The notes: generated by a model from the letters alone, not told the origin. Positions 21,567 to 64,000 are shown, numbered from the stretch's first letter. The stretch is DNA of 64,000 nt from Candidatus Omnitrophota bacterium (GCA_016939375.1 JAFGHF010000034.1:13950-77949), one strand, 5' to 3'. A program made the numbers and translations.

Positions 21567-21593
21567 TTTTTGCTTCTCCTCTCTAAGTGGCTT

Positions 21594-22958: not shown

Positions 22959-22967
22959 TGTATTTCT

Positions 22968-23747: not shown

Positions 23748-23797
23748 ATTTTCCTCCTTTTTCAGGATAGGGCGGTTCTATGTATTTTACACACTCT

Positions 23798-24541: not shown

Positions 24542-24557
24542 CTCTTTGTTATTTTTG

Positions 24558-24693: not shown

Positions 24694-24707
24694 TGCATTT
24701 TTTATTA

Positions 24708-39538: not shown

Positions 39539-42500
39539 TCAGCTTCTCTTCCGCAACATTTTTTATATTTCTTCCCGCTGCCACAAGGACAAGGCTCATT
39601 GCGACCAATCTTGCGGCCTTCTCTTTTGAAAGTTTGCGGGGACTTTTCCTCTTGCGGGCCAGGAGCTGTTTTGGCTGGCTTCTGCTTTGCCACACCACGC
39701 CCTTGCCCGGCAGGACGGGGCAGATCTTGAATCCTGGCGCTTTCAGGATGGACCAGCCGCTGGGGAGTTTGAGCAAAGACCGTGGAAGCCTTTTCTTCCT
39801 TAAGCGGCTGTGCCCTGAAGACAACTTCCAAAGTCTCATTTTTGATGCTCTCAGTCATCTGCCTAAACATATCGTAACCTTCGCGCTGGTATTCGACTAA
39901 AGGGACGTGGCCGGCATACCCGCGCAGACCGATCCCTTCGCGCAGATGATCCATGCTGTATAAATGGTCTTTCCACTTGGCGTCGATCACCTGCAGTAAT
40001 ACGATCTGGGCAAAGCGCTGTAGATGCTCAGAGCCTACTTGAGCCTCTTTCTGCTCATAGGCCTGCTGCATCTTTGCCCTAATCTCTTGACTAAGCTGCT
40101 CTAAAGAAGAAATCTCCTCTAATCCTTCGACATTTAATAGGAATTTTGATCTAAGATGGCTTTTTAACCCTCTAATATTCCACTCCTGCGAATCTACATT
40201 TTCGTTGGCATAAAGCCCGACGATAGAGTCCGCCGTTTCTTCAATCATCTCTAATATATGTTCCTTAAGACTATTGCTGTTTAAGACCAGCCGTCTTTCG
40301 TCATATATCGCCTCTCGTTGGGTGTTCATAACATTGTCGTATTCCAAAAGTTGTTTTCTGATATCAAAATTGTGCTGCTCCACCCTCTTCTGGGCGGTCT
40401 CAATGCTCCTGGTAATCAGTGGGTGCTCGATGGGAATAGATTCCTCCCACTTCATAAAATCCATGATCTTGGAGATCTTATCCGAAGCAAAGATGCGCAT
40501 CAAATCGTCTTCCAAAGACAAATAAAATTGGGAGCTTCCCGGCGCTCCATGCCGTCCGGAGCGCCCACGTAGCTGATTGTCTATGCGTCGGGATTCATGG
40601 CGCTCGGTGCCTAAAACCTGCAGACCCCCCAAAGATACGATCTGCTCTCTCTCTTTGACATAGACTTCCATTTTCTCAGAAAGGATACCGATTTTCTCAC
40701 GGCTTTCGCTGGACAACGAAGAGAAATCTTTTATCTTGGTCAGGTCTCTGGACATGATCTCTTCTCTGGAAAGCAGGTTTATCCTGCGCAGGTCCTGTTC
40801 AATCACCTGAAACTCCTCTTGAGACCTCTTTATGTCCTCTAAAATCCTGTATTTTTTTATTTCCCCTATTACAGAATAGATTATATTTTCAAATCGGTTT
40901 TGCAACGTATCTTTGAGCATGTCTATTTGCTTTTTTGCCTCTCCCAGTTTGCGAGAATATGCTATCGGCCTCCACTTGCCCAGGACATTTTTTTTGATCT
41001 CTTGTAAACTGATGCCCCGGGAATCAAAATGTTCTCTGCCTAACCTTTCTATCCTATCCACAAGTTCCCAGAATTCCTTGCTTTGTTTAGTCAGATTTAA
41101 GAAAAATTCTTCGTTTGATTTAAAATCCCCTTCGATCCTTCCTAACTGTTGCTCTATTGTTTTAAGCTTTTCGCTGAGTCTATTCATTTCATCGCTAGAG
41201 ATCGTTTCATTGCTTGTTTGCTCTTTTTGATCTTCTTGCTTCCCCCCGCTGAGGAGCTCGATTTCTTTTGCCAGCTGGTCTTCCCTTTCCGCTATCAGCT
41301 CAACGGCCTCTTTCAGTTGCGGCTGCACCGTTTGACAAAACTCTACGAACCCCTTGATATTCTGTTGCATGCCAGCATAAAGCGTCTGCAAATAATCCAC
41401 CTTGTTTTTGCATCTTCCTACGATCTTATCTACGCCTTTCAATCTCTCTTGGTCAATATCTACCACAGAAAATATCTCTGCCAGGTTTTTTTGTTCTGCT
41501 ATAAGAATTTCTTTCAATTTAACGATGCTTTCCAAAGATGCCGCGAAAAGGGCCGAATAGTCTGCGTCGAAATTAAGCAGAAAGCTGCTGACGCTTTCCG
41601 CTTGTTTATCTACAAAATTACGATAGACCTTATCGTGTAAACTCGTCACGGCCAATAATCTGTTTAGCAGGTCATCGAACCTGTCTTCCGGTTGTTTTAG
41701 GCTGCTGATAGTCTTAGAGACTATTTTAAGCGAAGCTTCACAAATGATGTTTGCCAGGACAGCGTCTTTAAGCCTGGGGGGGTCGCCTCCCAGTTTGATG
41801 TCTGTCCCCCTGCCGGCCATATTGGTGGCCACAGTCACCCTGCCCTCTCTTCCCGCCTCAGAGATTATCCTTGCTTCCCTTGCTTCATCCTCGGCATTCA
41901 AAATCTCATGCTCTATGTCTCTCTCCGAAAGCAGCCGGCTTAGTTTCTTATTTTTCTCTACAGAAGTAGTGCCTACCAATACAGGCAAACCCTTTTTATG
42001 GTATTCGGCTACTTTATTGCATATGGCATTGAATTTTTCTTTCTCGGTCTTATATATGACATCGGGCGAGTCGTCACGGATAGTGGGTTTATAGGTCGGT
42101 ATACAAACCACGTCTAAATTATAAATATGGTAAAATTCCTGGGCCTCGGTAGCGACAGTGCCGCTCATGCCGGAAAGTTTCTCATACATACGAAAGTAGT
42201 TCTGAAATGTAATCGTGGCCAGGGTCTGGTTTTCCCTCTCGATCTTTACCCCTTCTTTAGCCTCTATTGCCTGATGCAACCCATCGCTCCAACGCCTCCC
42301 CGGCATAAGCCTTCCGGTAAACTCATCAATAATGACTACCTGGCCATGCTCGACTATGTAATCCACATCTCGCTCAAAAAGATTGTGCGCGCGCAGTGAT
42401 TGTTGGGTCAAGTGCTTTAAGGGCATGGTCTCGATCGTGCTTAAGTTATCGACGCCCCAAATGTGGGCAGCCTTTTTCTCCCCTTCATCGGTAAGAAATA

Positions 42501-43449
42501 CTAAATGTTCTTTCTCTTTAACAATGAAATCTACTCCCACGGTCAAATCGATCTCTTTATATTTGGCCTCGATCTCCTCTTTGTCGGTGATCTTTTTACC
42601 TTTTAACCTGCGGGCCACCTTATCCGCCTGATAATATTTGTCTGTGGCCTCTTCGGCAGGTCCGGAGATTATCAAAGGCGTACGCGCCTCGTCTACCAGT
42701 ATGCTGTCTACTTCATCGACTATGGCAAAATGGAACTCTCTCTGCACCATATCGGCCTTTCTGAACTTCATGTTGTCGCGCAGATAGTCAAAACCAAATT
42801 CGTTATTGGTCCCGTAAGTAATATCGCTGGCATACGCGGCCTGCCTTTCTCTGTCTCTCATATCGTGCTGGATCACCCCCACAGAAAGGCCTAAGGCCTC
42901 ATAGACCGGCCCCATCCAGTCACGATCACGCTTGGCCAGGTAGTCATTGACCGTGACTATATGTACACCCCTACCGCTAAGGGCATTTAAATATGCCGGA
43001 AGCGTGGCTACGAGCGTCTTTCCTTCTCCATTGGCCATCTCGGCGATTATCCCATAATGAAGTGTAAGCCCACCGATAAGCTGGACATCGTGATGGCGCA
43101 GGCCTATCGTGCGCCGGGCCGCTTCGCGCACCAGGGCAAAAGCATCAGGCAGGATATCTTCCAGGGCCTTATTGCGGATATCCCTGATCTTTGCTTTGAC
43201 GTTCTGTTTTTCCTTGGGATCGGTCATCTCGCTAAGCTGCTCTTCTAAAGCCTCTAAGGGCTCGCTAAGGTCTTTGCTTTTCTCTTCGATGCGCTTTCTA
43301 AATTCTTCTGTTTTATCGCGCAATTGCTCATCAGACAAAGCAGACATCTCCCCCTCAAGCATGTTAATCCGGTCGAGGACCGGCTTAAAGCGCCTGATAA
43401 TGCGCTCGCTCTGCGAACCACTGATCTTATTAAGCAAAAACTTAAACAT
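39535..43449 (-). CDS. secA: Preprotein translocase ATPase SecA, with a 370-400 aa coiled-coil insertion in NBD2
   Basis: Has the canonical SecA N-terminus, DEAD motifs, the C-terminal zinc finger CPCGSGKKYKKCCG, and an AAAGGAG SD 7 nt before the ATG. Motif V MAGRGTDIKLGG and GGLQVLGTERHESRRIDNQLRGRSGRHG lie about 420 aa apart, versus about 50 aa in E.coli. Total length is 1304 aa versus about 900. Confidence 0.95.
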   Translation of the reverse strand: MFKFLLNKISGSQSERIIRRFKPVLDRINMLEGEMSALSDEQLRDKTEEFRKRIEEKSKDLSEPLEALEEQLSEMTDPKEKQNVKAKIRDIRNKALEDILPDAFALVREAARRTIGLRHHDVQLIGGLTLHYGIIAEMANGEGKTLVATLPAYLNALSGRGVHIVTVNDYLAKRDRDWMGPVYEALGLSVGVIQHDMRDRERQAAYASDITYGTNNEFGFDYLRDNMKFRKADMVQREFHFAIVDEVDSILVDEARTPLIISGPAEEATDKYYQADKVARRLKGKKITDKEEIEAKYKEIDLTVGVDFIVKEKEHLVFLTDEGEKKAAHIWGVDNLSTIETMPLKHLTQQSLRAHNLFERDVDYIVEHGQVVIIDEFTGRLMPGRRWSDGLHQAIEAKEGVKIERENQTLATITFQNYFRMYEKLSGMSGTVATEAQEFYHIYNLDVVCIPTYKPTIRDDSPDVIYKTEKEKFNAICNKVAEYHKKGLPVLVGTTSVEKNKKLSRLLSERDIEHEILNAEDEAREARIISEAGREGRVTVATNMAGRGTDIKLGGDPPRLKDAVLANIICEASLKIVSKTISSLKQPEDRFDDLLNRLLAVTSLHDKVYRNFVDKQAESVSSFLLNFDADYSALFAASLESIVKLKEILIAEQKNLAEIFSVVDIDQERLKGVDKIVGRCKNKVDYLQTLYAGMQQNIKGFVEFCQTVQPQLKEAVELIAEREDQLAKEIELLSGGKQEDQKEQTSNETISSDEMNRLSEKLKTIEQQLGRIEGDFKSNEEFFLNLTKQSKEFWELVDRIERLGREHFDSRGISLQEIKKNVLGKWRPIAYSRKLGEAKKQIDMLKDTLQNRFENIIYSVIGEIKKYRILEDIKRSQEEFQVIEQDLRRINLLSREEIMSRDLTKIKDFSSLSSESREKIGILSEKMEVYVKEREQIVSLGGLQVLGTERHESRRIDNQLRGRSGRHGAPGSSQFYLSLEDDLMRIFASDKISKIMDFMKWEESIPIEHPLITRSIETAQKRVEQHNFDIRKQLLEYDNVMNTQREAIYDERRLVLNSNSLKEHILEMIEETADSIVGLYANENVDSQEWNIRGLKSHLRSKFLLNVEGLEEISSLEQLSQEIRAKMQQAYEQKEAQVGSEHLQRFAQIVLLQVIDAKWKDHLYSMDHLREGIGLRGYAGHVPLVEYQREGYDMFRQMTESIKNETLEVVFRAQPLKEEKASTVFAQTPQRLVHPESARIQDLPRPAGQGRGVAKQKPAKTAPGPQEEKSPQTFKREGRKIGRNEPCPCGSGKKYKKCCGREAE

Positions 43450-54395: not shown

Positions 54396-54953
54396 TCACC
54401 ATCCCTCGATGGTGTGGTTTACAATACGCCTTGCCAAATCAGTGATTGCGATCGAAACCGCAGAGTCCTCAGAGCCGGCATATGTCCCTTCGAGGTTGTA
54501 AGAAGAATCACCGATCACCCTGGGGTCTTCCCACATTATCTTATTATGTTTTTTATCCTCAAGGATAACGGCACAGACCACGCTCACTCTATATTCTTCG
54601 ACTGTCTCATTATCCGCCCCATAGCGCAGCGGCTGCCTAAGATAATCGATTAAATCACCGCTTAAGACCAAATCCGCGTTCTCCTGCTCCACTACCTTGA
54701 GGTGGCCGTCGTTTATGAACCTCTCGATTACCGCCCTGGTTATGTCTACCTCCAATTGCGCGCGATAGGTTCGAAAACGGTATGCGTCATGGGCGAGCTC
54801 TTCAGTCAGCTGTATCTTGTTGCGAAAGGGGCCGATATAAATTGTCTGTAGGTCGCTGGGTAAGAGCGAGCCTGTGGTATAGCCACATCCGCAAATACTA
54901 ACGCTGATCAACAACAGAAACAGCAACAAAAAATTTCTCATCTTAAGTCTCAC
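54396..54953 (-). CDS. lptE: LPS-assembly lipoprotein LptE-like
   Basis: Signal peptide with Cys (LLLISVSICGCGY); 185 aa; position immediately upstream of holA as in the E.coli leuS-lptE-holA arrangement. The sequence-level match to LptE is weak, so the call rests mainly on synteny. Confidence 0.5.
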   Translation of the reverse strand: MRLKMRNFLLLFLLLISVSICGCGYTTGSLLPSDLQTIYIGPFRNKIQLTEELAHDAYRFRTYRAQLEVDITRAVIERFINDGHLKVVEQENADLVLSGDLIDYLRQPLRYGADNETVEEYRVSVVCAVILEDKKHNKIMWEDPRVIGDSSYNLEGTYAGSEDSAVSIAITDLARRIVNHTIEGW

Positions 54954-55912
54954 TATTCTTCATTTTGTTTGCGAATCACTTGCAGTCTCTCCAGAGCCCG
55001 TGCCGCCAATTCGCTATCAGGATACTTACTTAAAATCTCCTCGTAGTATATCACGGCACTTTCCAGGTTGCCCTGTTTCTCATAAAACTGGGCGATATCA
55101 AAACTTTTCTGCGCCTTTTGGTCTTCTAGCGTGCTAATAAAATGCCTGGCTTCCTTTTCCATGTGACTGTCAGGATATCTTTTCACAAAATCCTTAAATT
55201 CTTTGATTGCCTTATCGGTGTCCTCTTCATTATATTCCGGTCCCGTCGAAGAATTGGCGGCACAGATGGCTATTTGGTATTTAGCATCATCGATCAACTG
55301 ACTTTTTGGGTAACTTTCGATTATCTTCTTGAAGGCCAAAGCAGCATTAATATAATCCTGTGTATCCATATAGCACTGGCCTAACTTAAATTGGGCGATA
55401 TCGGCGTACTCGCCATAAGGGGCGTTTTCTACGACTTGGGCAAATATTTCAATTGCCTTGCTTTTTGCAGGCAAAATAGACATGCCTAAGATCTTGGCCT
55501 TCTGCCCCGTATAAAACAAATTTGCGATCTGGTATTCCCGTTCAATTATTTCATCTACCCTTTCGGTATAAGGATATCTATCGATCACCAGCTGATAGTT
55601 CGTATAGGCCCTGTAATATTCGGCTATGTTCTCATAGCAAAGGCCCATATAATATTGGGACTCACTGGCCAATTTGGAAAGAGGGTAGTTCTTAATTAAC
55701 TTTTCGAACTCTCCGGCCGCCTTTTTATAGTCGCCCTCGTTAAAAAACCCCATAGCCCAATCAAATTGCTTTTGTGGAGTTTCTTTAACAGCGTATTTGG
55801 GATTAATGAACTTGCCTGTATCGGGCGTCCAAATCCAATATGCCTGGCAATATCCCCCAAGGCATTGTGCAATCAACAGAACTATGGAAATTGTAAATAT
55901 TTTTCTCATCAT
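54953..55912 (-). CDS. bamD: Outer membrane protein assembly factor BamD-like TPR lipoprotein
   Basis: Signal peptide then TPR repeats with the BamD-like pattern (SQYYMGLCYEN..., DIAQFKLGQCYMDTQDY..., DDAKYQIAICA...); 319 aa. Confidence 0.6.
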   Translation of the reverse strand: MMRKIFTISIVLLIAQCLGGYCQAYWIWTPDTGKFINPKYAVKETPQKQFDWAMGFFNEGDYKKAAGEFEKLIKNYPLSKLASESQYYMGLCYENIAEYYRAYTNYQLVIDRYPYTERVDEIIEREYQIANLFYTGQKAKILGMSILPAKSKAIEIFAQVVENAPYGEYADIAQFKLGQCYMDTQDYINAALAFKKIIESYPKSQLIDDAKYQIAICAANSSTGPEYNEEDTDKAIKEFKDFVKRYPDSHMEKEARHFISTLEDQKAQKSFDIAQFYEKQGNLESAVIYYEEILSKYPDSELAARALERLQVIRKQNEE

Positions 55913-55920
55913 AGCAGCTT

Positions 55921-56307
55921 CTATGTCCTCTGGCAGGCAATAAACTCGCTTATCTGGCCCATATCATCTGGGTCGAGTCCAGTAAACTCTATACCTACTT
56001 CATACTGGTCGCCATAAGCGGTCTTACTTATCCAGGCCACCCGACCAGTACTTCTTACTGGCCTGGCCCCCATAGTCAAAGGTATCTCTGCGGCCAATCT
56101 CAGGTTTAAAGGTAAAAACTCAAAAATTGTCATCCGCGCACCGCCAACGCTGATATCTCTCATCAGGCTACCCTTAAACTCTTTACCATGGGTCTCTATC
56201 TTCTTATAACGCATAGGGTTACTAAAGTTAAAGCGGTGATGTCGTCTTCTCTCTTCCAAGGCATCATTTTCCATCTCGGCGTCTCCCTTTTTTAAGCCCG
56301 TAGCCAT
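55921..56307 (-). CDS. PilZ domain protein (c-di-GMP receptor)
   Basis: RRHHRFNF (RxxxR) and DISVGGARM (DxSxxG) motifs; 128 aa. Confidence 0.7.
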   Translation of the reverse strand: MATGLKKGDAEMENDALEERRRHHRFNFSNPMRYKKIETHGKEFKGSLMRDISVGGARMTIFEFLPLNLRLAAEIPLTMGARPVRSTGRVAWISKTAYGDQYEVGIEFTGLDPDDMGQISEFIACQRT

Positions 56308-56347: not shown

Positions 56348-56950
56348 TCAGAAGTTTAATTGCAGCGAAAATTCAAATGTATCGGCATCGAAATCATGCA
56401 CCCTGTCTATATGTTTCCAGCCGAAGGGGACAGTCAACCAGTCATTGATATTCCAATCGATAGTCGCTCCGCATGTGTTGAAAGTAGCCTGGCCCCTGGT
56501 AAAATCGTAGGTATATTCGTCAAAGAGGTGCAAAGTCAATACATCCTCGAAAAGCCACCAGTTCAAAGGCGGCGTAATCACAAAACGCGACTCCCATTCG
56601 GTGGTCTCCTCCAACAACTCCACAGGATAGTTCTCCTCCTGCTGCCAAACATGCTGAAAAGAGGCGCCATAATAAAAAATATCATTGAAAAAGGACGTAC
56701 CGATCTCTGCACCTGCTTCCCTGCGCCACCAATCTTCGCTATCAATATTATGTTGATACTCAAAGAACGGCAAAATATTGAAGGTCCTTTCTATGGGGGT
56801 AAGCTCATAATCTATAGTAAAGGCCGCGCGGCTTAAGTATAGGCTATCATCGTTATCGCTGGCAGCGATCCTTGCGGTATGTATATTTGTAAAACCAAAA
56901 TCTTTGATCTCTGCAAAGGCAAAAGCGGACAAAGAAAATATACCGATCAT
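56348..56950 (-). CDS. Putative outer-membrane beta-barrel protein (the true start may be a non-ATG codon at 56977)
   Basis: Ends in ...FEFSLQLNF, i.e. a C-terminal Phe with alternating aromatic/hydrophobic pattern. The N-terminal MIGIFSLSAFAFA|E is the h-region of a signal peptide lacking an n-region. The in-frame upstream codons encode KIFRKIFIFG and are preceded by AAGGAGG. Confidence 0.45.
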   Translation of the reverse strand: MIGIFSLSAFAFAEIKDFGFTNIHTARIAASDNDDSLYLSRAAFTIDYELTPIERTFNILPFFEYQHNIDSEDWWRREAGAEIGTSFFNDIFYYGASFQHVWQQEENYPVELLEETTEWESRFVITPPLNWWLFEDVLTLHLFDEYTYDFTRGQATFNTCGATIDWNINDWLTVPFGWKHIDRVHDFDADTFEFSLQLNF

Positions 56951-57013: not shown

Positions 57014-58336
57014 TTAGTGGTAGGGATAAAATATAAAGAAAAGCAAAGAAAGTATTCCCAAAATCCATAAACCAGGGTGGATGTCCTTTGTCTTGCCAGC
57101 AACTATCTTGACAAAAGGATAAAGCACAAACCCAGCTGTAATGCCGACGCCGATATTAAAAGTAAAGCTCATCAATACTATAACGCTAAAAGCAGGGATA
57201 AGTTCAGTATAATCATGGAAATTTATCTTTTTAATAGGCTCGAGCATCAACAGCCCTACGATGATCAATGCCGGTCCGTAAGCCACCGCTGGCACAGCGG
57301 TAAAAAGGGGGGTAAACAAAAGCGCTAGCAAAAACAGGGCCGAACAGATTAATGCAGTCAGGCCTGACTTGCCGCCTGCCTCGATGCCCGCAGCTGACTC
57401 AATAAAAGTGCCTGTGGTTGTTGTCCCTGACAAGGAACCGAATATAGTACCTAGGGCATCGCAAAGCATAGGTTTCTCGATCTCCGGAAGGTTGCCTTCT
57501 TCATCCAAGAAACCTGCCCGCGCGGAGACGCCGATCAAGGTACCCATGGTATCCAAAAAGTCCATTAAAAACACTGTCAGGATTACGGCAAAAAATCCCC
57601 AGGTAAATGCCCCGGCAATATCTAGCTTAAGACAAATCTCATTCCACCAACCGGAAAAATTCGGCAGCGAAACCAATCTTTCAGGCACTGGCGCAATCCC
57701 TAAAGGAAAAGAAAGCAAGGTAGTAGCTAATATGCCAAAAAGAATGGCACCTTTTACCTTCTTCAGCATCAAAAAGGCGATCAACAGAAAACCGAACACA
57801 GCCAACATAACAGGCGCGGTATTGATCTGACCGACTTTCAAAGGGGCATCGGGCGTACCCACCTTTATCAACCCGCTTACAGTCAAACCCACGAATGTCA
57901 GAAATAACCCGATACCGACAGCAAAGCTATATTTCAAAGATTGCGGTATCGCCTGGGCCATCCAGCTTCTCAGCCTCAAGACCGTCAGCAGGGTAAATAA
58001 AACCCCTCCGATGAATATCGCCCCTAAGGCGGTCTGCCAGCTGTAACCCAAAGTCTTAACCACGGTATAGGCTATAAAGGCATTTTCCCCCATGTAAGGA
58101 GCTATGGCAAAGGGGCGTTTGGCATAAATGCCCATAAGTAAGGTACCAAAGGCTGCCGATAAGATGGTAGCGATCATAGAAGGACCTTTGGGGATACCGG
58201 CAGCGGCTAAGATTGCCGGGTTTACTACAATGATATAAGCTACGGTAACAAAAGTGGTCAGTCCAGCTATGATCTCAGTGCGGATATCGGTATTTAGTTC
58301 CTTTAGCTTAAAGAAATCAACTAAAATGTTACCCAA
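57014..58336 (-). CDS. NCS2 family purine permease (AzgA/PbuG-like adenine/guanine/hypoxanthine transporter)
   Basis: 440 aa, about 13 TM, conserved AzgA-type N-terminus (EIIAGLTTFVTVAYIIVVNPAIL) and ...ESAAGI... region. Confidence 0.85.
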   Translation of the reverse strand: MGNILVDFFKLKELNTDIRTEIIAGLTTFVTVAYIIVVNPAILAAAGIPKGPSMIATILSAAFGTLLMGIYAKRPFAIAPYMGENAFIAYTVVKTLGYSWQTALGAIFIGGVLFTLLTVLRLRSWMAQAIPQSLKYSFAVGIGLFLTFVGLTVSGLIKVGTPDAPLKVGQINTAPVMLAVFGFLLIAFLMLKKVKGAILFGILATTLLSFPLGIAPVPERLVSLPNFSGWWNEICLKLDIAGAFTWGFFAVILTVFLMDFLDTMGTLIGVSARAGFLDEEGNLPEIEKPMLCDALGTIFGSLSGTTTTGTFIESAAGIEAGGKSGLTALICSALFLLALLFTPLFTAVPAVAYGPALIIVGLLMLEPIKKINFHDYTELIPAFSVIVLMSFTFNIGVGITAGFVLYPFVKIVAGKTKDIHPGLWILGILSLLFFIFYPYH

Positions 58337-58919
58337 AGATCTCTCCGGCCCTCTTAGCCATTTTTGAATAAATAAAAGAAGCTGCGGATAATTTTAAGAC
58401 TGCCCCGGGAAGAAAAGGCCAAAACCCCAACATCAAGGTCTCACGCAAACCCAGTTTAAAAAGTATTTCCAACCATAGGCATCCCCAGACATAGATTACC
58501 GCTAACCCCAAAGACATGACCATAAAAATACGAGCAAAGCTCAAGACCTTGGTCCTAGACATAAAATGGCCAATAAGCCAGCTGCCAAAGACAAACCCGA
58601 AGAGATATCCGCCCGTAGGTCCAGAGATAGCGAGTAGACCCGAAGCGGCGTTAGAAAAAATAGGTAGACCTAAAATACCCAATGCTAAGTAGCCCAACTG
58701 ACTGAACGTACCCCAGCTTCTGCCTAAGAAGGCCGCAGCCAAAAGCACAAAAAAAGTCTGCAGGGTTATAGGCACAGGGGTAAAAGGTAAAGGTATACGT
58801 ACAAAAGCGCCCAAGGCGGTCAGGACAATAAAGGAAATAAGCCCGATCAGCTTAGACAAATTCTTATCGACAATAAAGTCCTTTATTAAAATTTCCTTTG
58901 TGATCTCTAATGTCCTCAT
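58329..58919 (-). CDS. bioY: Biotin transporter BioY (ECF S-component)
   Basis: 196 aa, 6 TM, conserved TLQTFFVLLA...GPTGGYLFGF region. Confidence 0.8.
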   Translation of the reverse strand: MRTLEITKEILIKDFIVDKNLSKLIGLISFIVLTALGAFVRIPLPFTPVPITLQTFFVLLAAAFLGRSWGTFSQLGYLALGILGLPIFSNAASGLLAISGPTGGYLFGFVFGSWLIGHFMSRTKVLSFARIFMVMSLGLAVIYVWGCLWLEILFKLGLRETLMLGFWPFLPGAVLKLSAASFIYSKMAKRAGEIFG

Positions 58920-58937: not shown

Positions 58938-61900
58938 CTATCTTTTTCCCTCTAGTGCTACTGCCTCTTCAAAACAAGCAATAGCCTCTGAAAAAAGCCC
59001 ATGCTGAAGATATGCCTCTCCTTTTTCATAAAGCAATTTTATTTTTTGCAATTTTTCTTCGTCTTTGCGCTTGGCCAGAAATTCCTCACGTTCCATCTGG
59101 GCCATAGCTTGATCGATTTTGCGCAGATACTCATGCGCTTTTGCATTACTCGCATCCAAGGCTAAGGCCTGATTAAACTTTTCCTTGGCTCTCTGATACG
59201 CATTTTGCTTATAATAGAAAATGCCGTCTGTCAAATAGATCTCTATTTTCTCTTTTTGCCTGTGCTGCTCTTCCTGGGCTAAGCGTTGTCCTTGATATTC
59301 TCCTAGCTCTTCTTGATCAGCCCGTTTTCTGGCCAAGAACTGTTCGTCTTTCCTTCTAGCGACTTCTGCCTCTATCTGACGCAGATATTTCAAGGCGTCT
59401 TTATTGTAGTAATCTAAGTCTAAGACCTTATTGAATTTGTCTTTTGCTTTGGAATAAGCCCCCTGTTTGTAATAAAACTCCCCGGCGGAAATAAGCATTC
59501 TTATCTCTTCCTTATTCTGGCGCTCTTTTTCTTCTTGCTTGCGTTCTTCTTCATTGCGCTTGGCCAGGAATTCCTCACGTTCCTTTCTGGCAATCTCCTC
59601 CTCTATCTTGCTTAAGTATTTAAAAGCGGTTTTATTTGCATAATCCAAAGCCAATGCCTGGTTAAAAGATTCCTTGGCTTCTTCGTAATGTTTCTGCTCG
59701 TAATAATATCTGCCTTGCTCCAGATACTTATCTATGTTTTCCTGAAGTTTCCGCTCTTTTTGCTCAAGCAGGCCTTCTTTTTCCTGCGCATGTCCTTCAG
59801 CGATCTCCACCTCACCGCGGGCCCTGGCTAGGCGTTGTTCACGTTCTTCTTTAAGCACCTCTTCTTTGATCTTATGCAAATATTTCAGCGCTTCCTTATT
59901 GGCGTAGTCCAAAGCCAAAACTTGGTCAAAAACCTCCTTGGCTTTGCGATATTCATTTTCTTGATAATATATCTTTGCTTCGGAGAGATACATCTCGATT
60001 CTCTCCTGGCGCAGTTTCTCTTTTTCCTTTTTAAGCCGCTCTTGCTCTTTCTGCTGGGCCAAAAATTTCTCGCGCTCTATCTTAGCGATAGCCTCTTCTA
60101 TTTTTGTTAAGTATTTCAACGCTTGCTTGTCGGAATAATCTAAAGCCAATACATGTTTAAAGGCCTCTTCGGCGCTTAAATAATCCTTCTGTGCATAATA
60201 TGATTTTCCTTGAGCAAGATAGATATTGATTTCTTCCTCGAGCTTCTCTTGCTGTCCTTTTGCAATATCCCGTCTTTCATCTCTCTTAGTCCTTTCTTTT
60301 TCTATGACCTTGTCTTCTCGCTTTTGCCAAGGCCAGAAAGACTGTTTCTTTTTGTCTTTCTCAAAAGCGATCTCTGCGGTCTTAGCGGCAGCAGCTTGCT
60401 CAAAATCACTGAGCAGTTCTTGCTCTTTCTCGGACATAGCCTGCTCTATCCTATCAAGGTATCCCTGAGCTTCTTTGTTGCTCTGGTCTAAGACTATGAT
60501 CTCTTCAAATTTTTCTTTGGCTTTCTCATATTTCTTCTGTTTATAATAGGCCTTTCCCAGGTCAAAATACATCCTTATCTTGTCTTTTCGCTCACGCTCT
60601 TGCTCTTTAGCCCGGAGTCTTTCTTCCTTGAGCTGGCGTTCTTCTTCTTGGCGTTTGGCTGCAAGCTGCTGACTTTCCCTTTTGGTAATTGCCTTATCAA
60701 CCTTGCGCAAATATTTAAGCGCTTTTTTGTTGACACTATCCAAAGCCAATACCTGATTGAAAGATTCCTTTGCTTCTTCGTAGTGTTTCTGCTTGTAGTA
60801 CAATTTACCTTGATAAAGGTGGTTATCTATCTGTGCTTTTAGTTGGCGCTGCTCTTCTTTGGCCAGCTGTTTTTCTTCACGGCTTTTGCGTTGTGCCTCT
60901 TCGGCCTTGCGTATGGGACGTTCAAACTTCTCATCTAAAAACTCATCGCGCTCTGTCTTTTTCTCCATCCTTAATCTGGCCAGCTCTTCTTTGTAGCCTA
61001 AGGCGGGTAAGATTACTTTTGCACCTTTATCTGCCTGCTCCTTCTTCTCGCTCGGGGTATACGCACCCATTTTGACCAAATATCTGTGTGCGGCCTTATT
61101 ATTCTTATCCACGGCCAGTACGTTTTCAAACTCCTCTTGAGCTTTTTCGTATGCCTTATGCTTATAATAAAACTTGGCCTGCTCCAGATAAATCTCGATT
61201 TTTCCTTTTTTGAGCAGTTTTTCTTCTTTATATTTTTCCCTTGCGGACTTTTTCTCTTCTCTAAATTGCACTAGGTTTTCTTCATAGTCCTGGCGCACCT
61301 GCTGGATATGTTCTTTTTCACCGATCCTGGCAGGGGTCTCTACCGGCATCTGCTGGGAATCATATATCCCCATCTTGACCAGATAGTTGCGGGCCTCTCT
61401 ATTTGTGCTATCTAACGCTAATACTTGCTCAAACTCCCGCTGGGCCTGCTCATATGCCTCATCTTTATAATAGAATTTACCTTCGCCCAGCAAAATCTTT
61501 ATTTTTCCTTTAAGCATGCGCTGCTTTTCAGCAGCAAGCTTTTTCTCCAGGCGTTCCTGGACGGCTTGTTCTTTACGCAACCTCTCTTCAGCCTGCTGCA
61601 AGGCTTCATCCCTCTCCCGGGCCTTGTACTCTACCTCGCGGCGCTGTACCAACATTTCCTTTCGTTTTTTCTTGGCTATTATCTTTTCTATCTTACGCAG
61701 ATATTTGGACGCTTTTCTATTCGTATCCTCTATAGCCAATACTTTTTCAAACTGCTCCTGGGCCTGCTCAAATCTTTTTTCCTTGTAATAGTGGAGACCT
61801 TCCCCCATATGGAACTTGACGGCCTCTTTTTGCTTTTCTTCTTTCTCGGCCTTGATCTTTCTCTCCAGCCGCCGCCTGGCTTCTTCCAGCTTACGCCTTT

Positions 61901-62783
61901 TTTCTTCGGCTTCTTTCTCAGCCTTACGCTGGGTTTCCTCCTGCCTACGCGCAATGCGTTTCTGCTCTTCCAACAAACGCTCTTCTTCCCGGCGTCTGGC
62001 AAGAAGACGCTCTCTTTTTTCCTCTGCTATGTCCTTTTCAATCTTGTGCAGATATTTACGCGCTTCTTTGTTTTTGTAATCCAGTTGCAGGGCCTTGTCG
62101 AACTCCTCCTTGGCTTGTAAATATGCCTTTTCTTTGTAATAATATTTACCCTCGGAGAGGAAAAAGTTTATTTTCTCTTGTAGCTCTTTTTCCCTCTCGG
62201 CCTTTATTCTTTTCTCCAGGCGCTGTATCGCCTCTTCCTGTTCGCGCTCTTTCTCCTCGATTCTTCTCTCAGCCTCAAGTTGAGATTTTTCTTTCTGAGA
62301 CAGCAACTTTGCCTTTTCTACCTCTAATCTTTCCTTCTCTCTTAGCAATTGCTCTCTCTGTTGTGTTAATTTTTCGCGACGGGTGACTAATTCCGGATGA
62401 GCTTCTAATTCGTGTTTCTCCATGAAGTCCAAGACTTCACTGGCCTCTTGCAGTTGGTTCTTCTCGAATACTTTTTTCACCCGTCCGGGAAATGTCTTTT
62501 CATATTTTTCTAATTCCTTCTGCACAAGCTTGAGGTACCACTTAGCCCCTTGATGGTTCGGCTGCAATTCTAGCACCTTTTCAAACTGCTCCTGGGCCTG
62601 GCTATACTCTCCCTTGCGAAAATAAATCCGGGCCTGGTCATAGTGGGCTTTGACATTTGTCTCGGGAGGCTGATAACTCTTTTTAAAAACCCACCAGGCC
62701 TCAGAACTTTGACAAAGACTGAAAGTCAAAACAGCGGCAAAGAGTAGCAAAAAGCCAATTTTGGGCCAAGGACTACGTTTCAT
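58938..62783 (-). CDS. Giant secreted or membrane-anchored repeat protein: about 14 tandem units of a single TPR-like motif plus a charged coiled-coil spacer
   Basis: N-terminal signal/TM (IGFLLLFAAVLTFSLC). After that come repeats of approximately G.YYYKQKHYEEAKE.FNQVLALD..NK.ALKYLRKIE followed by 40-50 aa of E/K/R-rich helix. The C-terminal unit is YEKGEAYLQHGLFSEAIACFEEAVALEGKR; 1281 aa. Confidence 0.7.
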   Translation of the reverse strand: MKRSPWPKIGFLLLFAAVLTFSLCQSSEAWWVFKKSYQPPETNVKAHYDQARIYFRKGEYSQAQEQFEKVLELQPNHQGAKWYLKLVQKELEKYEKTFPGRVKKVFEKNQLQEASEVLDFMEKHELEAHPELVTRREKLTQQREQLLREKERLEVEKAKLLSQKEKSQLEAERRIEEKEREQEEAIQRLEKRIKAEREKELQEKINFFLSEGKYYYKEKAYLQAKEEFDKALQLDYKNKEARKYLHKIEKDIAEEKRERLLARRREEERLLEEQKRIARRQEETQRKAEKEAEEKRRKLEEARRRLERKIKAEKEEKQKEAVKFHMGEGLHYYKEKRFEQAQEQFEKVLAIEDTNRKASKYLRKIEKIIAKKKRKEMLVQRREVEYKARERDEALQQAEERLRKEQAVQERLEKKLAAEKQRMLKGKIKILLGEGKFYYKDEAYEQAQREFEQVLALDSTNREARNYLVKMGIYDSQQMPVETPARIGEKEHIQQVRQDYEENLVQFREEKKSAREKYKEEKLLKKGKIEIYLEQAKFYYKHKAYEKAQEEFENVLAVDKNNKAAHRYLVKMGAYTPSEKKEQADKGAKVILPALGYKEELARLRMEKKTERDEFLDEKFERPIRKAEEAQRKSREEKQLAKEEQRQLKAQIDNHLYQGKLYYKQKHYEEAKESFNQVLALDSVNKKALKYLRKVDKAITKRESQQLAAKRQEEERQLKEERLRAKEQERERKDKIRMYFDLGKAYYKQKKYEKAKEKFEEIIVLDQSNKEAQGYLDRIEQAMSEKEQELLSDFEQAAAAKTAEIAFEKDKKKQSFWPWQKREDKVIEKERTKRDERRDIAKGQQEKLEEEINIYLAQGKSYYAQKDYLSAEEAFKHVLALDYSDKQALKYLTKIEEAIAKIEREKFLAQQKEQERLKKEKEKLRQERIEMYLSEAKIYYQENEYRKAKEVFDQVLALDYANKEALKYLHKIKEEVLKEEREQRLARARGEVEIAEGHAQEKEGLLEQKERKLQENIDKYLEQGRYYYEQKHYEEAKESFNQALALDYANKTAFKYLSKIEEEIARKEREEFLAKRNEEERKQEEKERQNKEEIRMLISAGEFYYKQGAYSKAKDKFNKVLDLDYYNKDALKYLRQIEAEVARRKDEQFLARKRADQEELGEYQGQRLAQEEQHRQKEKIEIYLTDGIFYYKQNAYQRAKEKFNQALALDASNAKAHEYLRKIDQAMAQMEREEFLAKRKDEEKLQKIKLLYEKGEAYLQHGLFSEAIACFEEAVALEGKR

Positions 62784-62786
62784 CTT

Positions 62787-63491
62787 TTAATGTTCTCCGC
62801 CTAACTCGATTACTTTATCAAAACAGTTCATCGCTTCAGAGTAAAGCCCCTGTTGCAAATAGGCCTTACCTTGCTCATAAAGGTCTATGATCTCTTGTAG
62901 GTCTTTTTGTTCCTTCTGTTGCTCTATCAGCCTGACTGTTGTACCATTCAGAAGCTGTGTAGCCGGCTGCGTTTCTTGATTTGTCGGTATCTGTAGTTGC
63001 GCTTGTTTTTTCTCTTGTGCCAGGACTGTATTTCTGGCACGCTGTTCAATAAGATTTAAGGCATCGCTTATTTCTTCGGTTCTTTTCTCTTGCTCTTTTC
63101 TCTTATCGGCCAATTTTTCTTTTTTTAGCTTCTCGATTTTACCCTGGAAAGTATGCTCATATTTATCCTGTTCCTTGTCGGCGATTTTGAGATACCAACG
63201 GGCACCTTGGTGTCTGGGCTGCAATTGCAATACCTCCCTAAAGTCGTTAGCGGCTTTCTCATATTCTCCATTACGAAAGTACTCTCTACCCCTATCGTAA
63301 TGTATTTTGGCCAATTCTCGCGCTACCTCAGGAGGATATTGTTCAGCCCATATATATCCTAATAGTGGGCCTAAAGCAAACCAAACAGCCAAAAATAATA
63401 TTATGACCAGCAAAAAGTTGTTTCTCATTATTTGCCAAGGCCTTCTGACAAGCTTCAATGGATAAAATTTTCCTTTTTTTGATAATATCAC
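62787..63491 (-). CDS. Small paralog of the giant repeat protein (N- and C-terminal units only)
   Basis: Signal/TM, then IHYDRGREYFRNGEYEKAANDFREVLQLQPRHQGARWYLK (compare ARIYFRKGEYSQAQEQFEKVLELQPNHQGAKWYLK in the giant), a coiled coil, and a C-terminal YEQGKAYLQQGLYSEAMNCFDKVIELGGEH (compare the giant's C-terminus). Confidence 0.6.
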   Translation of the reverse strand: MILSKKGKFYPLKLVRRPWQIMRNNFLLVIILFLAVWFALGPLLGYIWAEQYPPEVARELAKIHYDRGREYFRNGEYEKAANDFREVLQLQPRHQGARWYLKIADKEQDKYEHTFQGKIEKLKKEKLADKRKEQEKRTEEISDALNLIEQRARNTVLAQEKKQAQLQIPTNQETQPATQLLNGTTVRLIEQQKEQKDLQEIIDLYEQGKAYLQQGLYSEAMNCFDKVIELGGEH

Positions 63492-63636
63492 CTCTATATC
63501 TCTTGTGTCAAGTGTTTTATAGCGGTCAAGTATTTATGGGCTGGTAAGCTATGACATGTGTAAAGATGAGAATAATGACTGTAAGAGAAAGTGGATAAAC
63601 GAGTTGGGTAAGATGTGTGCATCTGCGGGCTAAAAA

Positions 63637-64000
63637 TTACCTTCTGACTGTATCGTTGATTTTTATGGATGTCCCCCTCGCTTCTTTAATATCGCAGGCG
63701 GCGATATTCTTACGTGTCTCGATCACCTCTACTTTTCCGATCCTCATCTCATTGCGGTATACATCGAAGCTCATCCCTTTCTCCAGGCCATCGTCGCCAC
63801 CTAAGTTGATCACCACAAACTCATGTTTATTATTTACCGTAATAACCCTGCCCTCGGGTATTATATCTTCTGCTACCGAAGGCACTTCTATCTCTGCCCC
63901 TTGGGGCTCTTCGACCTCGACCAACCTGGACCTGGTTAATCTCGGCAAAAAAAGTTCTTGTTTGCTCTCAGAAACGGCAAGGGGCTCTTCTGCTTTTACT
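63637..64000 (-). CDS. Partial hypothetical protein (N-terminus beyond the window end)
   Basis: The track M at 63948 decodes as TTG. The frame stays open upstream to position 64000 (...VKAEEPLAVSESKQELFLPRLTRSR...). The C-terminal region GRVITVNNKHEFVVINLGGDDGLEKGMSFDVYR..IGKVEVIE has a small beta-barrel-like pattern with no confident family assignment. Confidence 0.35.
   Translation of the reverse strand, partial: VKAEEPLAVSESKQELFLPRLTRSRLVEVEEPQGAEIEVPSVAEDIIPEGRVITVNNKHEFVVINLGGDDGLEKGMSFDVYRNEMRIGKVEVIETRKNIAACDIKEARGTSIKINDTVRR

What the first reader, a model, noticed from the sequence alone, without database searches (positions are those of the whole stretch)
58938..63491. Tandem paralogs: a 1281-aa protein built by roughly 14-fold amplification of a (TPR-like unit plus charged coiled-coil) module, next to a 234-aa one-module version
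The small protein (62787-63491) has a signal/TM, one N-terminal TPR-like unit (EYFRNGEYEKAANDFREVLQLQPRHQGARWYLK), a charged helix and a C-terminal capping unit (YEQGKAYLQQGLYSEAMNCFDKVIELGGEH). The giant neighbour has the same N-terminal and C-terminal caps. Between them it carries about 14 copies of G.YYYKQKHYEEAKE.FNQVLALD..NK.ALKYLRKIE, each followed by 40-50 aa of ERK-rich helix. This is a clean example of domain-repeat expansion producing a rod- or spring-like periplasmic or surface protein. It sits beside PilZ (c-di-GMP), an OMP and BamD. I know of no characterised homolog.
Basis: seen in the sequence. Interest (0 to 1): 0.55.

Follow-up and report, generated by a model that had tools for sequence, protein, structure and literature searches.

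The report
Stand-alone TPR-spacer arm of PilQ secretins
Two neighbouring genes of an uncultured Omnitrophota bacterium encode exported, all-helical proteins made of single TPR "knuckles" spaced by long charged helices. In related genomes the same cassette forms the N-terminal part of a type IV pilus outer-membrane channel, but here it stands alone, so its function is inferred, not known.

Summary
The large ORF (58938-62783, minus strand, 1281 aa) has 13 TPR units: an N-terminal cap, 11 internal units (not about 14) and a C-terminal cap. Units lie 68-161 aa apart and are joined by charged helices. The small ORF shares both caps but has only a degenerate middle unit, and probably starts at ATG 63428 (213 aa). 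Repeat copies are 35-72% identical in protein and 52-77% in DNA, so the array is old and not an assembly artefact.

The window comes from a Candidatus Omnitrophota MAG. About 18 sequence clusters carry the same caps, with lengths from 166 to 2820 aa. In all six loci where the downstream genes are visible, the family member sits in one syntenic slot, upstream of a small OMP-like protein, PilZ, BamD and LptE.

Where PilM/N/O/P-like genes lie upstream (three loci), the cassette is fused in the two complete proteins to a PilQ/GspD-type secretin. The third is cut by its contig end. Where a membrane-anchored coiled-coil protein lies upstream, as here, every complete member ends at the C-cap with no secretin.

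AlphaFold2 predicts long unbroken helices (43-65 aa) alternating with 14-aa hairpin helices.

Best reading: a Sec-exported periplasmic scaffold or tether with conserved docking ends and a spacer of evolvable length, homologous to the TPR arm of PVC-type PilQ. It is a new variant of a known kind; the function is unproven.

The parts
63482..63511 (-). Sigma-70-like promoter (TTGACA, 18 nt, TG-TATTAT) in front of the small gene
   Evidence: It matches 11 of 12 positions and has an extended -10 TG. It overlaps the GTG at 63491, so it favours the ATG at 63428 as the start. This is a consensus match only.
62787..63428 (-). Small paralog, 213 aa (the ORF is open back to GTG 63491, 234 aa): signal peptide or anchor, N-cap TPR, long helix, disordered stretch, C-cap TPR
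   Evidence: The AF2 model (pLDDT 69) has helices 18-49, 54-73, 77-90, 95-165, 184-213 and 217-232 in 234-aa numbering.
63183..63302 (-). N-cap TPR of the small protein (HYDRGREYFRNGEYEKAANDFREVLQLQPRHQGARWYLK)
   Evidence: Pfam TPR_1/TPR_2 match at residues 61-94. The family motif is invariant at H, Y, R, G-E-Y, A, V-L, P, H-Q-G-A and W-Y.
62790..62882 (-). C-cap TPR of the small protein (LYEQGKAYLQQGLYSEAMNCFDKVIELGGEH)
   Evidence: The C-cap profile scores 84 bits.
58938..62783 (-). Large paralog, 1281 aa. It starts 3 nt after the stop codon of the small gene.
   Evidence: It is identical to P0001, which NCBI names 'tetratricopeptide repeat protein', from a Candidatus Omnitrophica MAG contig of 94,459 bp.
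62700..62783 (-). Predicted Sec signal peptide of the large protein (MKRSPWPKIGFLLLFAAVLTFSLCQSSEA / WW)
   Evidence: Read from the sequence: a basic n-region, a 15-aa hydrophobic core and an S-E-A motif, with no canonical lipobox. No signal-peptide predictor was run. The homologous N-terminus precedes an outer-membrane secretin in P0005 and P0006.
62526..62645 (-). N-cap TPR of the large protein (aa 47-86)
   Evidence: The N-cap profile scores 115 bits.
59118..62162 (-). Array of 11 internal modules (aa 208-1222). Each is one TPR, a conserved capping-helix motif (IExxIAxxEREEFLA) and a variable charged helix.
   Evidence: AF2 of aa 641-1281 gives pLDDT 82, with long helices of 43-65 aa alternating with 14-aa helices.
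58941..59033 (-). C-cap TPR of the large protein (aa 1251-1281, LYEKGEAYLQHGLFSEAIACFEEAVALEGKR)
   Evidence: The C-cap profile scores 73 bits.
63637..64000 (-). 3' end of the upstream conserved gene, cut off by the end of the window. It is the C-terminal small beta-domain of a membrane-anchored coiled-coil protein (311-404 aa in relatives).
   Evidence: There is no in-frame stop up to base 64000. It is 52-61% identical to the C-termini of L004_311, L002_404 and L003_392. Alignment A5 shows an invariant NIAACD motif.
58329..58919 (-). BioY, the next gene downstream. It also follows the secretin-fused homolog in L010.
56348..56950 (-). Conserved 200-aa OMP-like protein of the syntenic block, with no Pfam or NCBIfam family. 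It has a signal peptide and ends in ...SLQLNF.
   Evidence: It is 53-58% identical to L001_208 and L002_209. No family was found.
55921..56307 (-). Single-domain PilZ protein of the syntenic block
   Evidence: Pfam PilZ E=4.4e-13. It is 47-53% identical to the PilZ genes of L001 and L002.
54396..55912 (-). BamD (54953-55912) and LptE (54396-54953), the outer-membrane biogenesis genes that close the conserved block
   Evidence: The same order occurs in L001, L002 and L008/L009.

Best explanation
The two genes are co-oriented, probably co-transcribed paralogs. They belong to a small family restricted to Omnitrophota, which I call capped TPR-spacer proteins.

Each protein has a Sec signal peptide, a conserved N-terminal cap TPR (RELAxIHYxRARxYYRxGEYxxAxxEFxxVLxLxPxHQGAxWYLK) and a conserved C-terminal cap TPR (LYExGKxYLxxGLYSEAIxCFExVIELxG). 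Between the caps lies a variable number of modules, each a single TPR hairpin followed by a long, highly charged helix.

Shown:
- The repeats are real and old.
- The family occupies one syntenic slot next to a small OMP-like gene, PilZ, BamD and LptE.
- In relatives whose slot is preceded by PilM/N/O/P-like genes, the whole cassette is the N-terminal part of a PilQ/GspD-type secretin.
- Here, and in four other lineages, it is a separate protein ending at the C-cap.

Inferred: after export the protein sits in the periplasm as an elongated, semi-rigid chain. Each long helix runs from one TPR knuckle into helix A of the next, and its free middle behaves like an ER/K single alpha-helix. The two conserved caps are the docking ends, and the middle is a spacer or multivalent scaffold whose length evolves freely (about 0 to about 24 modules).

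Most likely it works as a periplasmic tether or scaffold attached to outer-membrane machinery. The partner could be a secretin encoded elsewhere, the adjacent OMP-like protein, or the upstream membrane-anchored coiled-coil protein. In this respect it resembles the TPR arm of PVC-type PilQ (Akkermansia Amuc_1098).
For: Repeats: 13 TPR_2 stretches, E=3e-50. Units are 35-72% identical, and self-similarity is far above shuffles.

Paralogy: the caps are shared at E=3e-24 and E=1e-11. In an N-cap tree the window's large protein groups with the large protein of L004, and the small with the small, so the duplication predates that split. The same small-plus-large tandem occurs in L004.

Family: members with the N-cap have lengths of 166, 172, 186, 203, 213, 227, 229, 300, 322, 389, 707, 1281 and 2820 aa, plus fragments. 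All complete ones also carry the C-cap.

Synteny: L001 has T2SSF, pseudopilins, PilMN, PilO-like and PilP-like genes, then the fusion, an OMP-like gene, PilZ, BamD, LptE, HolA, S20, MurJ, UvrC, RF and SecA. The window has the same downstream order. L010 and L012 have the same upstream pilus genes. L002, L003/L007, L004 and L008/L009 instead have the membrane-anchored coiled-coil protein upstream, and none of their complete members has a secretin domain.

Structure: AF2 of aa 641-1281 gives mean pLDDT 82, with helices of 43-65 aa alternating with 14-aa helices. The free helix middles are 8-21% hydrophobic.

The same module type is inserted in AMIN-containing PilQ proteins (P0011, P0012; precomputed Pfam) and lies C-terminal to a secretin fragment in P0014.

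The best NCBIfam hit of the large protein is the Amuc_1098 type IV pilus outer-membrane family. Amuc_1098 has N-terminal TPRs and is localised to the outer membrane (PMC4960237).
Against: - No secretin, pilus or type II secretion gene lies anywhere in the 64-kb window. The closest ortholog's upstream region (L004) has none either. A pilus-related role in this genome is therefore inference from homologs only.
- The 17-fold range in length (166-2820 aa) is hard to reconcile with a ruler that spans a periplasm of fixed width.
- The signal peptide and periplasmic location are read from the sequence and from the fused homologs, not predicted by a dedicated tool or measured.
- The AF2 global arrangement is unreliable (pTM 0.25), and long charged helices are a typical default output.
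- A single TPR with one capping helix may not be stable alone, so the real fold could depend on oligomerisation.
- The Amuc_1098 match scores 121 bits against a cut-off of 750, and involves generic TPR similarity.
Confidence: 0.5

Rival explanations
1. It is an independent envelope structural element, unrelated to pili. The upstream membrane-anchored coiled-coil/beta-domain protein, the TPR-spacer protein or proteins and the downstream 200-aa OMP-like barrel would form a link or lattice between the inner and outer membranes, possibly regulated by c-di-GMP through PilZ. The secretin fusions would then be a secondary capture of this module.
For: In five lineages without secretin fusion, the coiled-coil protein lies upstream wherever that side is visible. 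The OMP-like and PilZ genes lie downstream in the four whose downstream side is visible (L004's contig ends inside the gene). No pilus genes occur in the window. The block also contains BamD and LptE.
Against: No interaction has been tested. The OMP-like gene and PilZ also accompany the secretin-fused form in L001, so they are not specific to the stand-alone form. The direction of evolution, fusion or fission, is unresolved.
Confidence: 0.25
2. It is a pilotin- or chaperone-like assembly factor. The TPR knuckles would bind unfolded or monomeric outer-membrane proteins, secretins or BAM substrates, as PilF/PilW/Tgl or BamD do, with multivalency provided by the array.
For: There are weak TPR-level matches to PilW (60.6 bits), YbgF, BamD and Tgl. 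The authors of the Akkermansia study describe the TPR part of PilQ as pilotin-like (PMC4960237). BamD is a neighbour.
Against: All of those matches are far below the family cut-offs. There is no lipobox. Isolated TPRs cannot form the multi-repeat groove that pilotins and BamD use. An enormous spacer content is not needed by a chaperone.
Confidence: 0.12
3. It is a decaying relic of a PilQ gene that lost its secretin half, with no remaining function.
For: Fused and unfused forms share one syntenic slot. The middle unit of the small protein is degenerate.
Against: Open frames of 3.8 kb here and 8.5 kb in L007 are intact. The array stays collinear with an ortholog at only 37% identity. The caps are strongly conserved across about 18 clusters. 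A good promoter is present. L007 shows ongoing internal duplication.
Confidence: 0.05
4. It is a secreted or surface-exposed fibre or adhesin used for host or prey contact.
For: Omnitrophota are thought to be host-dependent and encode many giant surface proteins (PMC10066038; 10.64898/2026.06.07.730766). The protein is long, repetitive and has a signal peptide.
Against: No adhesin, Ig, lectin, dockerin, autotransporter or sorting domain is present. The homologous cassette lies on the periplasmic side of a secretin in P0005 and P0006. No dedicated secretion genes are adjacent.
Confidence: 0.06
5. The repeat array is an assembly artefact.
For: None beyond the general risk that repeats pose in MAG assemblies.
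Against: Copies share at most 77% DNA identity and no long exact repeats. An independent assembly (L004) has a collinear ortholog.
Confidence: 0.02

Closest known systems
N-terminal TPR arm of PVC-type PilQ secretins (Akkermansia muciniphila Amuc_1098 family, NF042912; Omnitrophota fusions P0005 and P0006)
   Same: Signal peptide followed by spaced TPR units and charged helices. P0005 and P0006 have the same N-cap and C-cap and occupy the same syntenic slot. NF042912 is the top NCBIfam hit. The N-terminal half of Amuc_1098 carries TPRs, and the protein is in the outer membrane (PMC4960237).
   Different: The window's proteins end at the C-cap. They have no STN/N0, Secretin_N or Secretin domain, and no pilus genes are nearby. 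The NF042912 score is 121 bits against a cut-off of 750. They have many more modules than the three TPRs reported for Amuc_1098.
Canonical TPR domain proteins (Pfam clan TPR; for example consensus CTPR proteins, O-GlcNAc transferase, P58IPK)
   Same: Each unit is a bona fide 34-residue TPR, with G8, Y11, A20 and F24 kept. TPR_1 and TPR_2 score far above their cut-offs. Foldseek finds only TPR proteins.
   Different: The TPRs are never adjacent. Each is separated from the next by 28-121 residues of helix, so no superhelical groove can form within one chain. TM-scores to solved TPR proteins are 0.12 or less.
AMIN/TPR/STN and AMIN/TolA-like charged-helix architectures of periplasmic transport proteins (de Souza et al. 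2008, PMC2572700)
   Same: TPRs and long charged helices are attached to secretin-type N-terminal modules. P0011 and P0012 show the same kind of TPR plus E/R/K-helix module between AMIN domains of a PilQ.
   Different: The window proteins have no AMIN or STN domain. The caps are specific to the Omnitrophota family.
ER/K single alpha-helix (SAH) spacers and TolA domain II (comparison from general knowledge)
   Same: Long helices dominated by E, R, K and Q, with few hydrophobic residues (8-21% in the free middles). The role would be a semi-rigid spacer.
   Different: Several linkers contain amphipathic stretches, prolines, glycines or disordered breaks. SAH behaviour was not tested. Periodic interruption by TPR knuckles is not a feature of known SAH proteins.
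CpoB/YbgF and the pilotins PilF/PilW/Tgl (periplasmic TPR proteins)
   Same: Exported TPR proteins that act on envelope machines. CpoB also combines a helical oligomerisation region with TPRs.
   Different: Scores are far below cut-offs: YbgF 56 against 90, PilW 61 against 154, and Tgl 19 against 225 for the small protein. There is no lipobox, and the TPRs are not contiguous.

Membership tests
TPR repeat (Pfam TPR_1 / TPR_2) | 34-residue helix-turn-helix motif scoring above the gathering threshold | tested here: met
   Large protein: TPR_2 164.6 bits against 27, 13 stretches; TPR_1 124.8 bits. Small protein: TPR_2 56.1 bits.
TPR repeat (Pfam TPR_1 / TPR_2) | Three or more directly adjacent repeats stacking into a superhelix with a ligand groove | tested here: not met
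   Unit starts are 68-161 aa apart. AF2 shows each hairpin flanked by 43-65-aa helices. TM-scores to solved TPR arrays are 0.12 or less.
Omnitrophota capped TPR-spacer family (defined here) | N-terminal signal peptide followed by the N-cap motif (HY..AR..YR.GEY..A...F..VL.L.P.HQGA.WYL) | tested here: met
   The N-cap profile scores 115 bits (large) and 120 bits (small) at residues 36 and 33. Invariant columns are listed.
Omnitrophota capped TPR-spacer family (defined here) | C-cap motif (LYE.GK.YL..GLYSEA..CFE.VIEL.G) at or near the C-terminus of the cassette | tested here: met
   The C-cap profile scores 73 bits (large, aa 1240) and 84 bits (small).
Omnitrophota capped TPR-spacer family (defined here) | Syntenic slot upstream of the OMP-like gene, PilZ, BamD, LptE and HolA | tested here: met
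   The window compared with L001, L002 and L008/L009. In the window BioY and a permease are inserted; BioY also follows the gene in L010.
PilQ/GspD secretins, including the Amuc_1098 family (NF042912) | C-terminal Secretin domain (PF00263) | tested here: not met
   No Secretin hit in either protein at E<=1. P0005 and P0006 have it at E=4e-39 and 1e-39.
PilQ/GspD secretins, including the Amuc_1098 family (NF042912) | Periplasmic N0/STN and Secretin_N ring domains | tested here: not met
   Absent from both proteins.
PilQ/GspD secretins, including the Amuc_1098 family (NF042912) | Whole-protein score above the NCBIfam cut-off (750 bits) | tested here: not met
   121.5 bits. The best stretch covers profile positions 152-197 only, in the TPR part.
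PilQ/GspD secretins, including the Amuc_1098 family (NF042912) | Adjacent pilM/N/O/P or gsp assembly genes | tested here: not met
   None in the window. The upstream gene is the coiled-coil/beta-domain protein. The rest of the genome could not be examined.
Type IV pilus pilotins PilF/PilW/Tgl | Lipoprotein signal (lipobox with Cys) and a score above the family cut-off | tested here: not met
   The large protein has ...TFSLC, which is not [LVI][ASTVI][GAS]C. The small protein has no Cys in its N-terminus (read from the sequence). TIGR02521 scores 60.6 against 154; Tgl scores 18.6 against 225.
CpoB/YbgF (Tol-Pal) | TIGR02795 above its cut-off | tested here: not met
   56.3 bits against 90.1, with no stretch passing on its own.
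ER/K single alpha-helix (SAH) domains | Long helix stable as a monomer, rich in E/K/R with i,i+4 salt bridges and no hydrophobic seam | tested here: inconclusive
   Free middles are 64-79% E/R/K/D/Q and 8-21% hydrophobic. Linkers overall are 50% E/R/K, with 0.17 i,i+4 opposite-charge pairs per residue. Monomeric stability cannot be tested with these tools.

The most novel reading that the evidence does not exclude
The capped TPR-spacer proteins, together with the upstream membrane-anchored coiled-coil/beta-domain protein and the downstream small OMP-like barrel, would form a previously unrecognised periplasmic structural system of Omnitrophota. It would be a length-tunable tether or lattice of single-TPR knuckles joined by single alpha-helices. 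It could be either covalently fused to PilQ or free-standing, and its module number (about 0 to 24) would set a physical property of the envelope of these ultra-small cells.
Probability: 0.15. Interest if true: 0.7.

Novelty: new variant of a known kind. Interest (0 to 1): 0.42.

Why it matters
Secretins are usually described as having compact N-terminal ring domains plus optional AMIN domains. Here a long modular helical arm is found either fused to PilQ or as a separate gene in the same chromosomal slot. Its conserved ends and a middle that varies from almost nothing to about 24 modules make it a natural experiment in spacer length.

If the arm really tethers outer-membrane machines in Omnitrophota, it would bear on three questions: how these nano-sized, probably host-dependent bacteria organise their envelope and pili; how PVC-type PilQ (for example the abundant Akkermansia Amuc_1098) uses its TPR region; and whether periplasmic ER/K-type single helices exist.

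As it stands, this is a well-defined uncharacterised family with a testable structural hypothesis, not a demonstrated new mechanism.

Tried and rejected
- Exact-sequence look-ups of the window's own proteins (P0001, P0015) found no record, so the window could not be extended past base 64000.
- The third word-index homolog search, using the 74-column N-cap alignment, returned nothing and was wasted.
- The exhaustive representative search with the same profile returned 20,441 hits, mostly generic TPR proteins. Family members had to be picked out by requiring a full-length N-cap at the N-terminus plus a C-cap.
- Scans of GTDB genomes and JGI metagenomes with the pattern P[ERN]HQGAxWY gave only 3 and 2 loci, which is too few for statistics.
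- The first alignment for structure prediction (A2) used overlapping self-fragments that aligned to themselves. It was discarded in favour of A4.
- Foldseek against the PDB gave only generic TPR arrays with TM 0.12 or less. The afdb50 library was unavailable.
- The beta-domain of the upstream gene could not be assigned. FlgT_C scored E=0.016, below threshold. A PDB profile search gave only a proteasome Rpt1 OB region at E=1.9.
- The literature searches run here, and term look-ups in two Omnitrophota papers, found no description of this family.
- Rejected: a recent tandem expansion or hypervariable repeat (DNA identity 52-77%, collinear ortholog); a lipoprotein pilotin (no lipobox); a coiled-coil dimer as the default reading of the linkers (too few hydrophobic residues in the free helix middles).


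Full report
**1. What is in the sequence**

Two ORFs lie head to tail on the minus strand: 62787-63491 (234 aa from a GTG) and 58938-62783 (1281 aa). Three bases separate them.

Pfam finds only TPR families. The large protein has 13 separate TPR_2 stretches (E=3e-50) and the small one has two.

Anchoring on the conserved A...F..VL.L motif gives 13 units in the large protein:
- an N-terminal cap at aa 47;
- 11 internal units at aa 208, 325, 431, 532, 655, 739, 855, 932, 1020, 1097 and 1183;
- a C-terminal cap at aa 1251.

The internal units are 35-72% identical in protein and 52-77% in DNA. The caps are only 19-38% identical to the internal units.

Self-similarity is far above chance. The best 25-aa diagonal window scores 115, against 48.5 +/- 4.6 in shuffles.

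TRF finds no DNA tandem array, and direct DNA repeats are only 60-73% identical. The array is therefore old, and collapse during assembly is not a concern.

A 247-nt repeat family spaced 489-600 nt, together with the higher identities among units 655, 855, 1020 and 1183, shows that part of the array grew by duplicating two-module blocks.

**2. The small protein**

It shares the N-cap region (E=3e-24) and the C-cap (E=1e-11) with the large protein. Between its caps it has a long helix and a disordered stretch (AF2, pLDDT 69).

Alignment with homologs P0016 and P0017 shows that their intact internal TPR corresponds to a degenerate remnant in the window's protein.

A near-consensus promoter (TTGACA, 18 nt, TG-TATTAT) at 63511-63482 overlaps the GTG. 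ATG 63428 (213 aa, the NCBI call) is therefore the likely start.

**3. Organism and family**

Both proteins are identical to entries from a Candidatus Omnitrophica MAG contig of 94,459 bp, where they are annotated only as 'tetratricopeptide repeat protein'.

A profile of the N-cap, searched against 1.84 billion representatives, hit 20,441 TPR proteins. Only about 18 clusters have the full N-cap directly after a signal peptide. All complete members also have the C-cap. Their lengths are 166, 172, 186, 203, 213, 227, 229, 300, 322, 389, 707, 1281 and 2820 aa, plus fragments.

The 2820-aa member (L007, from a single-cell genome) has about 24 units between the same two caps and contains near-identical internal duplications. 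Constant ends with a middle that varies about 17-fold in length are the family's signature.

The window's array is collinear with its closest ortholog, P0002 (37% identity over 837 columns, 523 bits, against 353 bits or less for shifted alignments). That ortholog is also preceded by a 227-aa small paralog. An N-cap tree groups large with large and small with small. Both the duplication into two genes and much of the amplification therefore predate the split of these lineages.

**4. The key lead: secretin fusions in the same chromosomal slot**

P0005 (1906 aa) and P0006 (1632 aa) have the same signal peptide, N-cap, modules and C-cap. [quoted passage not shown] Both match the full length of the PilQ model TIGR02515 at 181-188 bits, below its 284-bit cut-off; GspD scores slightly higher.

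The locus of P0005 (L001) reads, in order:
- T2SSF, pseudopilins, PilM/N, a PilO/Amuc_1100-like gene and a PilP-like gene;
- the fusion protein;
- a 96-aa gene and a 208-aa OMP-like gene;
- PilZ, BamD, LptE, HolA, S20, MurJ, UvrC, RF and SecA.

The window has the same downstream order. Its OMP-like and PilZ proteins are 53% identical to those of L001. In L010 the fusion is followed by BioY, as in the window. L012 again has PilMN, PilO and PilP-like genes before a family member, which is cut off by the contig end.

The other loci differ. L002 (707 aa), L003/L007 (2820 aa), L004 (227 aa plus a large fragment of 829 aa or more) and L008/L009 (322 aa) lack the pilus genes. None of the complete proteins there carries a secretin domain; the two cut by contig ends (P0003 in L003, P0002 in L004) cannot be judged. 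Each locus has, directly upstream, a 311-404-aa protein with a membrane anchor, a coiled coil and a small C-terminal beta-domain. In three of the four loci this is preceded by a PilZ-ROK fusion.

The window's partial ORF at 63637-64000 is the C-terminus of that protein. It is 52-61% identical to these relatives and has no in-frame stop up to the window's end.

No secretin or pilus gene occurs anywhere in the window.

The pattern so far:

| Upstream genes | Distinct loci | Secretin domain |
|---|---|---|
| PilM/N/O/P-like genes | 3 | present in the 2 complete proteins; the third is cut by the contig end |
| Coiled-coil/beta-domain protein | 5 (window included) | absent from every complete protein |

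**5. Wider relatives**

The same kind of module (one TPR plus an E/R/K-rich helix) is inserted between AMIN domains of PilQ-type secretins (P0011, P0012). It also follows a secretin fragment in P0014.

The best NCBIfam match of the large protein is NF042912, the 'Amuc_1098 family type IV pilus outer membrane protein'. It scores 121 bits against a cut-off of 750 and matches only the TPR part.

Amuc_1098 is the most abundant outer-membrane protein of Akkermansia muciniphila. It has N-terminal TPRs and a C-terminal secretin domain, and antibodies against its N-terminal half label the outer membrane (PMC4960237). AMIN/TPR/STN and AMIN/TolA-like charged-helix architectures were noted in 2008 (PMC2572700).

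Term look-ups in two Omnitrophota papers (PMC10066038; 10.64898/2026.06.07.730766) found no mention of this family. They do report that type IVa pili are common in the phylum.

**6. Structure**

AF2 on aa 641-1281 (mean pLDDT 82, pTM 0.25) predicts a strict alternation:
- a long helix of 43-65 residues, which starts as the capping helix of one TPR and ends as helix A of the next;
- a turn;
- a 14-residue helix B;
- a turn;
- the next long helix.

Three longer linkers have low-confidence stretches (pLDDT below 50); two of these are modelled as short breaks in the helix.

Each knuckle is thus a three-helix junction. The free middle of each long helix (11-33 residues, about 1.6-5 nm) is 64-79% E/R/K/D/Q and only 8-21% hydrophobic. 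That composition resembles an ER/K single alpha-helix more than a coiled-coil core, although some linkers are more amphipathic.

Foldseek against the PDB returns only contiguous TPR arrays, at TM 0.12 or less. No solved structure shares the spaced arrangement. The global shape of the model is not reliable.

**7. Location**

The large protein begins MKRSPWPK-IGFLLLFAAVLTFSL-CQSSEA/WW. This has a basic n-region, a hydrophobic core and an AxA-like site, and no lipobox. All family members have a comparable N-terminus.

In P0005 and P0006 this N-terminus is the only export signal of an outer-membrane secretin, so there the cassette must cross the inner membrane and lie in the periplasm. The same location is inferred here. 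No dedicated predictor was run and nothing was measured.

**8. Mechanism**

Shown:
- an old, real array of modules between conserved caps;
- homology to the N-terminal arm of PilQ-type secretins;
- a conserved syntenic slot in an outer-membrane biogenesis neighbourhood;
- a predicted architecture of long helices and knuckles.

Inferred: the protein is a periplasmic, elongated, semi-rigid chain whose conserved caps are docking sites, and whose middle is a spacer or multivalent scaffold of evolvable length. In fused relatives the C-cap end is covalently tied to the secretin. In the stand-alone form it would dock non-covalently to a secretin encoded elsewhere, to the adjacent OMP-like barrel, or to the upstream membrane-anchored coiled-coil protein.

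The 17-fold range in length argues against a simple ruler spanning the periplasm. It fits better with an in-plane tether, a corral or a multivalent scaffold.

I give this combined reading a confidence of 0.5. The structural and evolutionary half is well supported. The functional half is not.

**9. Rivals**

| Rival reading | Confidence |
|---|---|
| Autonomous envelope structure formed with the conserved neighbours, unrelated to pili | 0.25 |
| Pilotin- or chaperone-like factor | 0.12 |
| Surface fibre or adhesin | 0.06 |
| Functionless relic of PilQ | 0.05 |
| Assembly artefact | 0.02 |

Intact long ORFs, conserved caps, collinearity at 37% identity and a good promoter argue against the relic and artefact readings.

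**10. Verdict**

The interpretation (module amplification giving a rod-like exported protein) is partly supported. It misses two points: the cassette is the detachable TPR arm of PVC/Omnitrophota PilQ-type secretins, and the amplification is ancient.

This is a new variant of a known kind (TPR-bearing periplasmic accessory of secretins) with an unusual architecture of single TPRs spaced by long helices. Interest is moderate (0.42). The finding gives a clear, testable hypothesis but no evidence of a new mechanism.

Noticed in passing
window 39535-43449 (-): SecA is 1304 aa, about 340 aa longer than the SecA genes called at the same syntenic position in relatives (956-967 aa in L001, L002, L008). 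SecA_SW starts only at residue 1006, and the best P-loop_SecA stretch ends at 567, so a large insertion lies between them. A 2026 preprint lists SecA-domain proteins among the long-protein clusters of Omnitrophota.
   Followed up: no
window 63637-64000 (-), continuing beyond the window: This conserved upstream gene encodes a membrane anchor, a coiled coil and a small C-terminal beta-domain with an invariant NIAACD motif. It belongs to no Pfam or NCBIfam family. The only hints are FlgT_C (E=0.016) and a proteasome Rpt1 OB region (E=1.9). It accompanies every family member that lacks a secretin.
   Followed up: partly
window 56348-56950 (-): This 200-aa protein has a signal peptide and ends in ...SLQLNF, like an outer-membrane barrel. 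It is 53-58% identical to genes at the same position in L001 and L002, but has no Pfam or NCBIfam family.
   Followed up: partly
L002 2552-4054, L003 7153-8703, L008 6996-8570: A 500-524-aa fusion of a PilZ domain with a ROK-family sugar kinase or regulator lies two genes upstream of the secretin-less family members. Whether the window's genome has it cannot be seen.
   Followed up: no
P0019, P0022, P0024, P0025, P0027 (representative search): This is a sister group of 2000-2900-aa exported proteins. They share an N-terminus FEREQD..(11-12 aa)..LMLHFMQGK.FFK (with minor variants) and have isolated TPRs spaced about 60-100 aa apart (longer gaps also occur). One comes from a 'PVC group bacterium (ex Bugula neritina AB1)'. 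Spaced-TPR giants are therefore wider than the capped family.
   Followed up: partly
L007 9800-18262: The 2820-aa family member contains near-identical internal blocks, for example aa about 1147-1400 against 1472-1720, and about 1889-1960 against 2160-2230. Amplification is recent in that lineage, unlike in the window.
   Followed up: partly
window 35531-37315 (-): This second TPR protein (594 aa) has a conventional, contiguous TPR array at residues about 400-570. It is a useful contrast to the spaced units of the finding.
   Followed up: no
window 17969-25484 and 38024-39538: The window is dense in envelope-biogenesis genes: LptF and LptG, MlaD/MlaE with an ABC ATPase, and Lnt, in addition to BamD, LptE, MurJ and UppP (BacA).
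   Followed up: no
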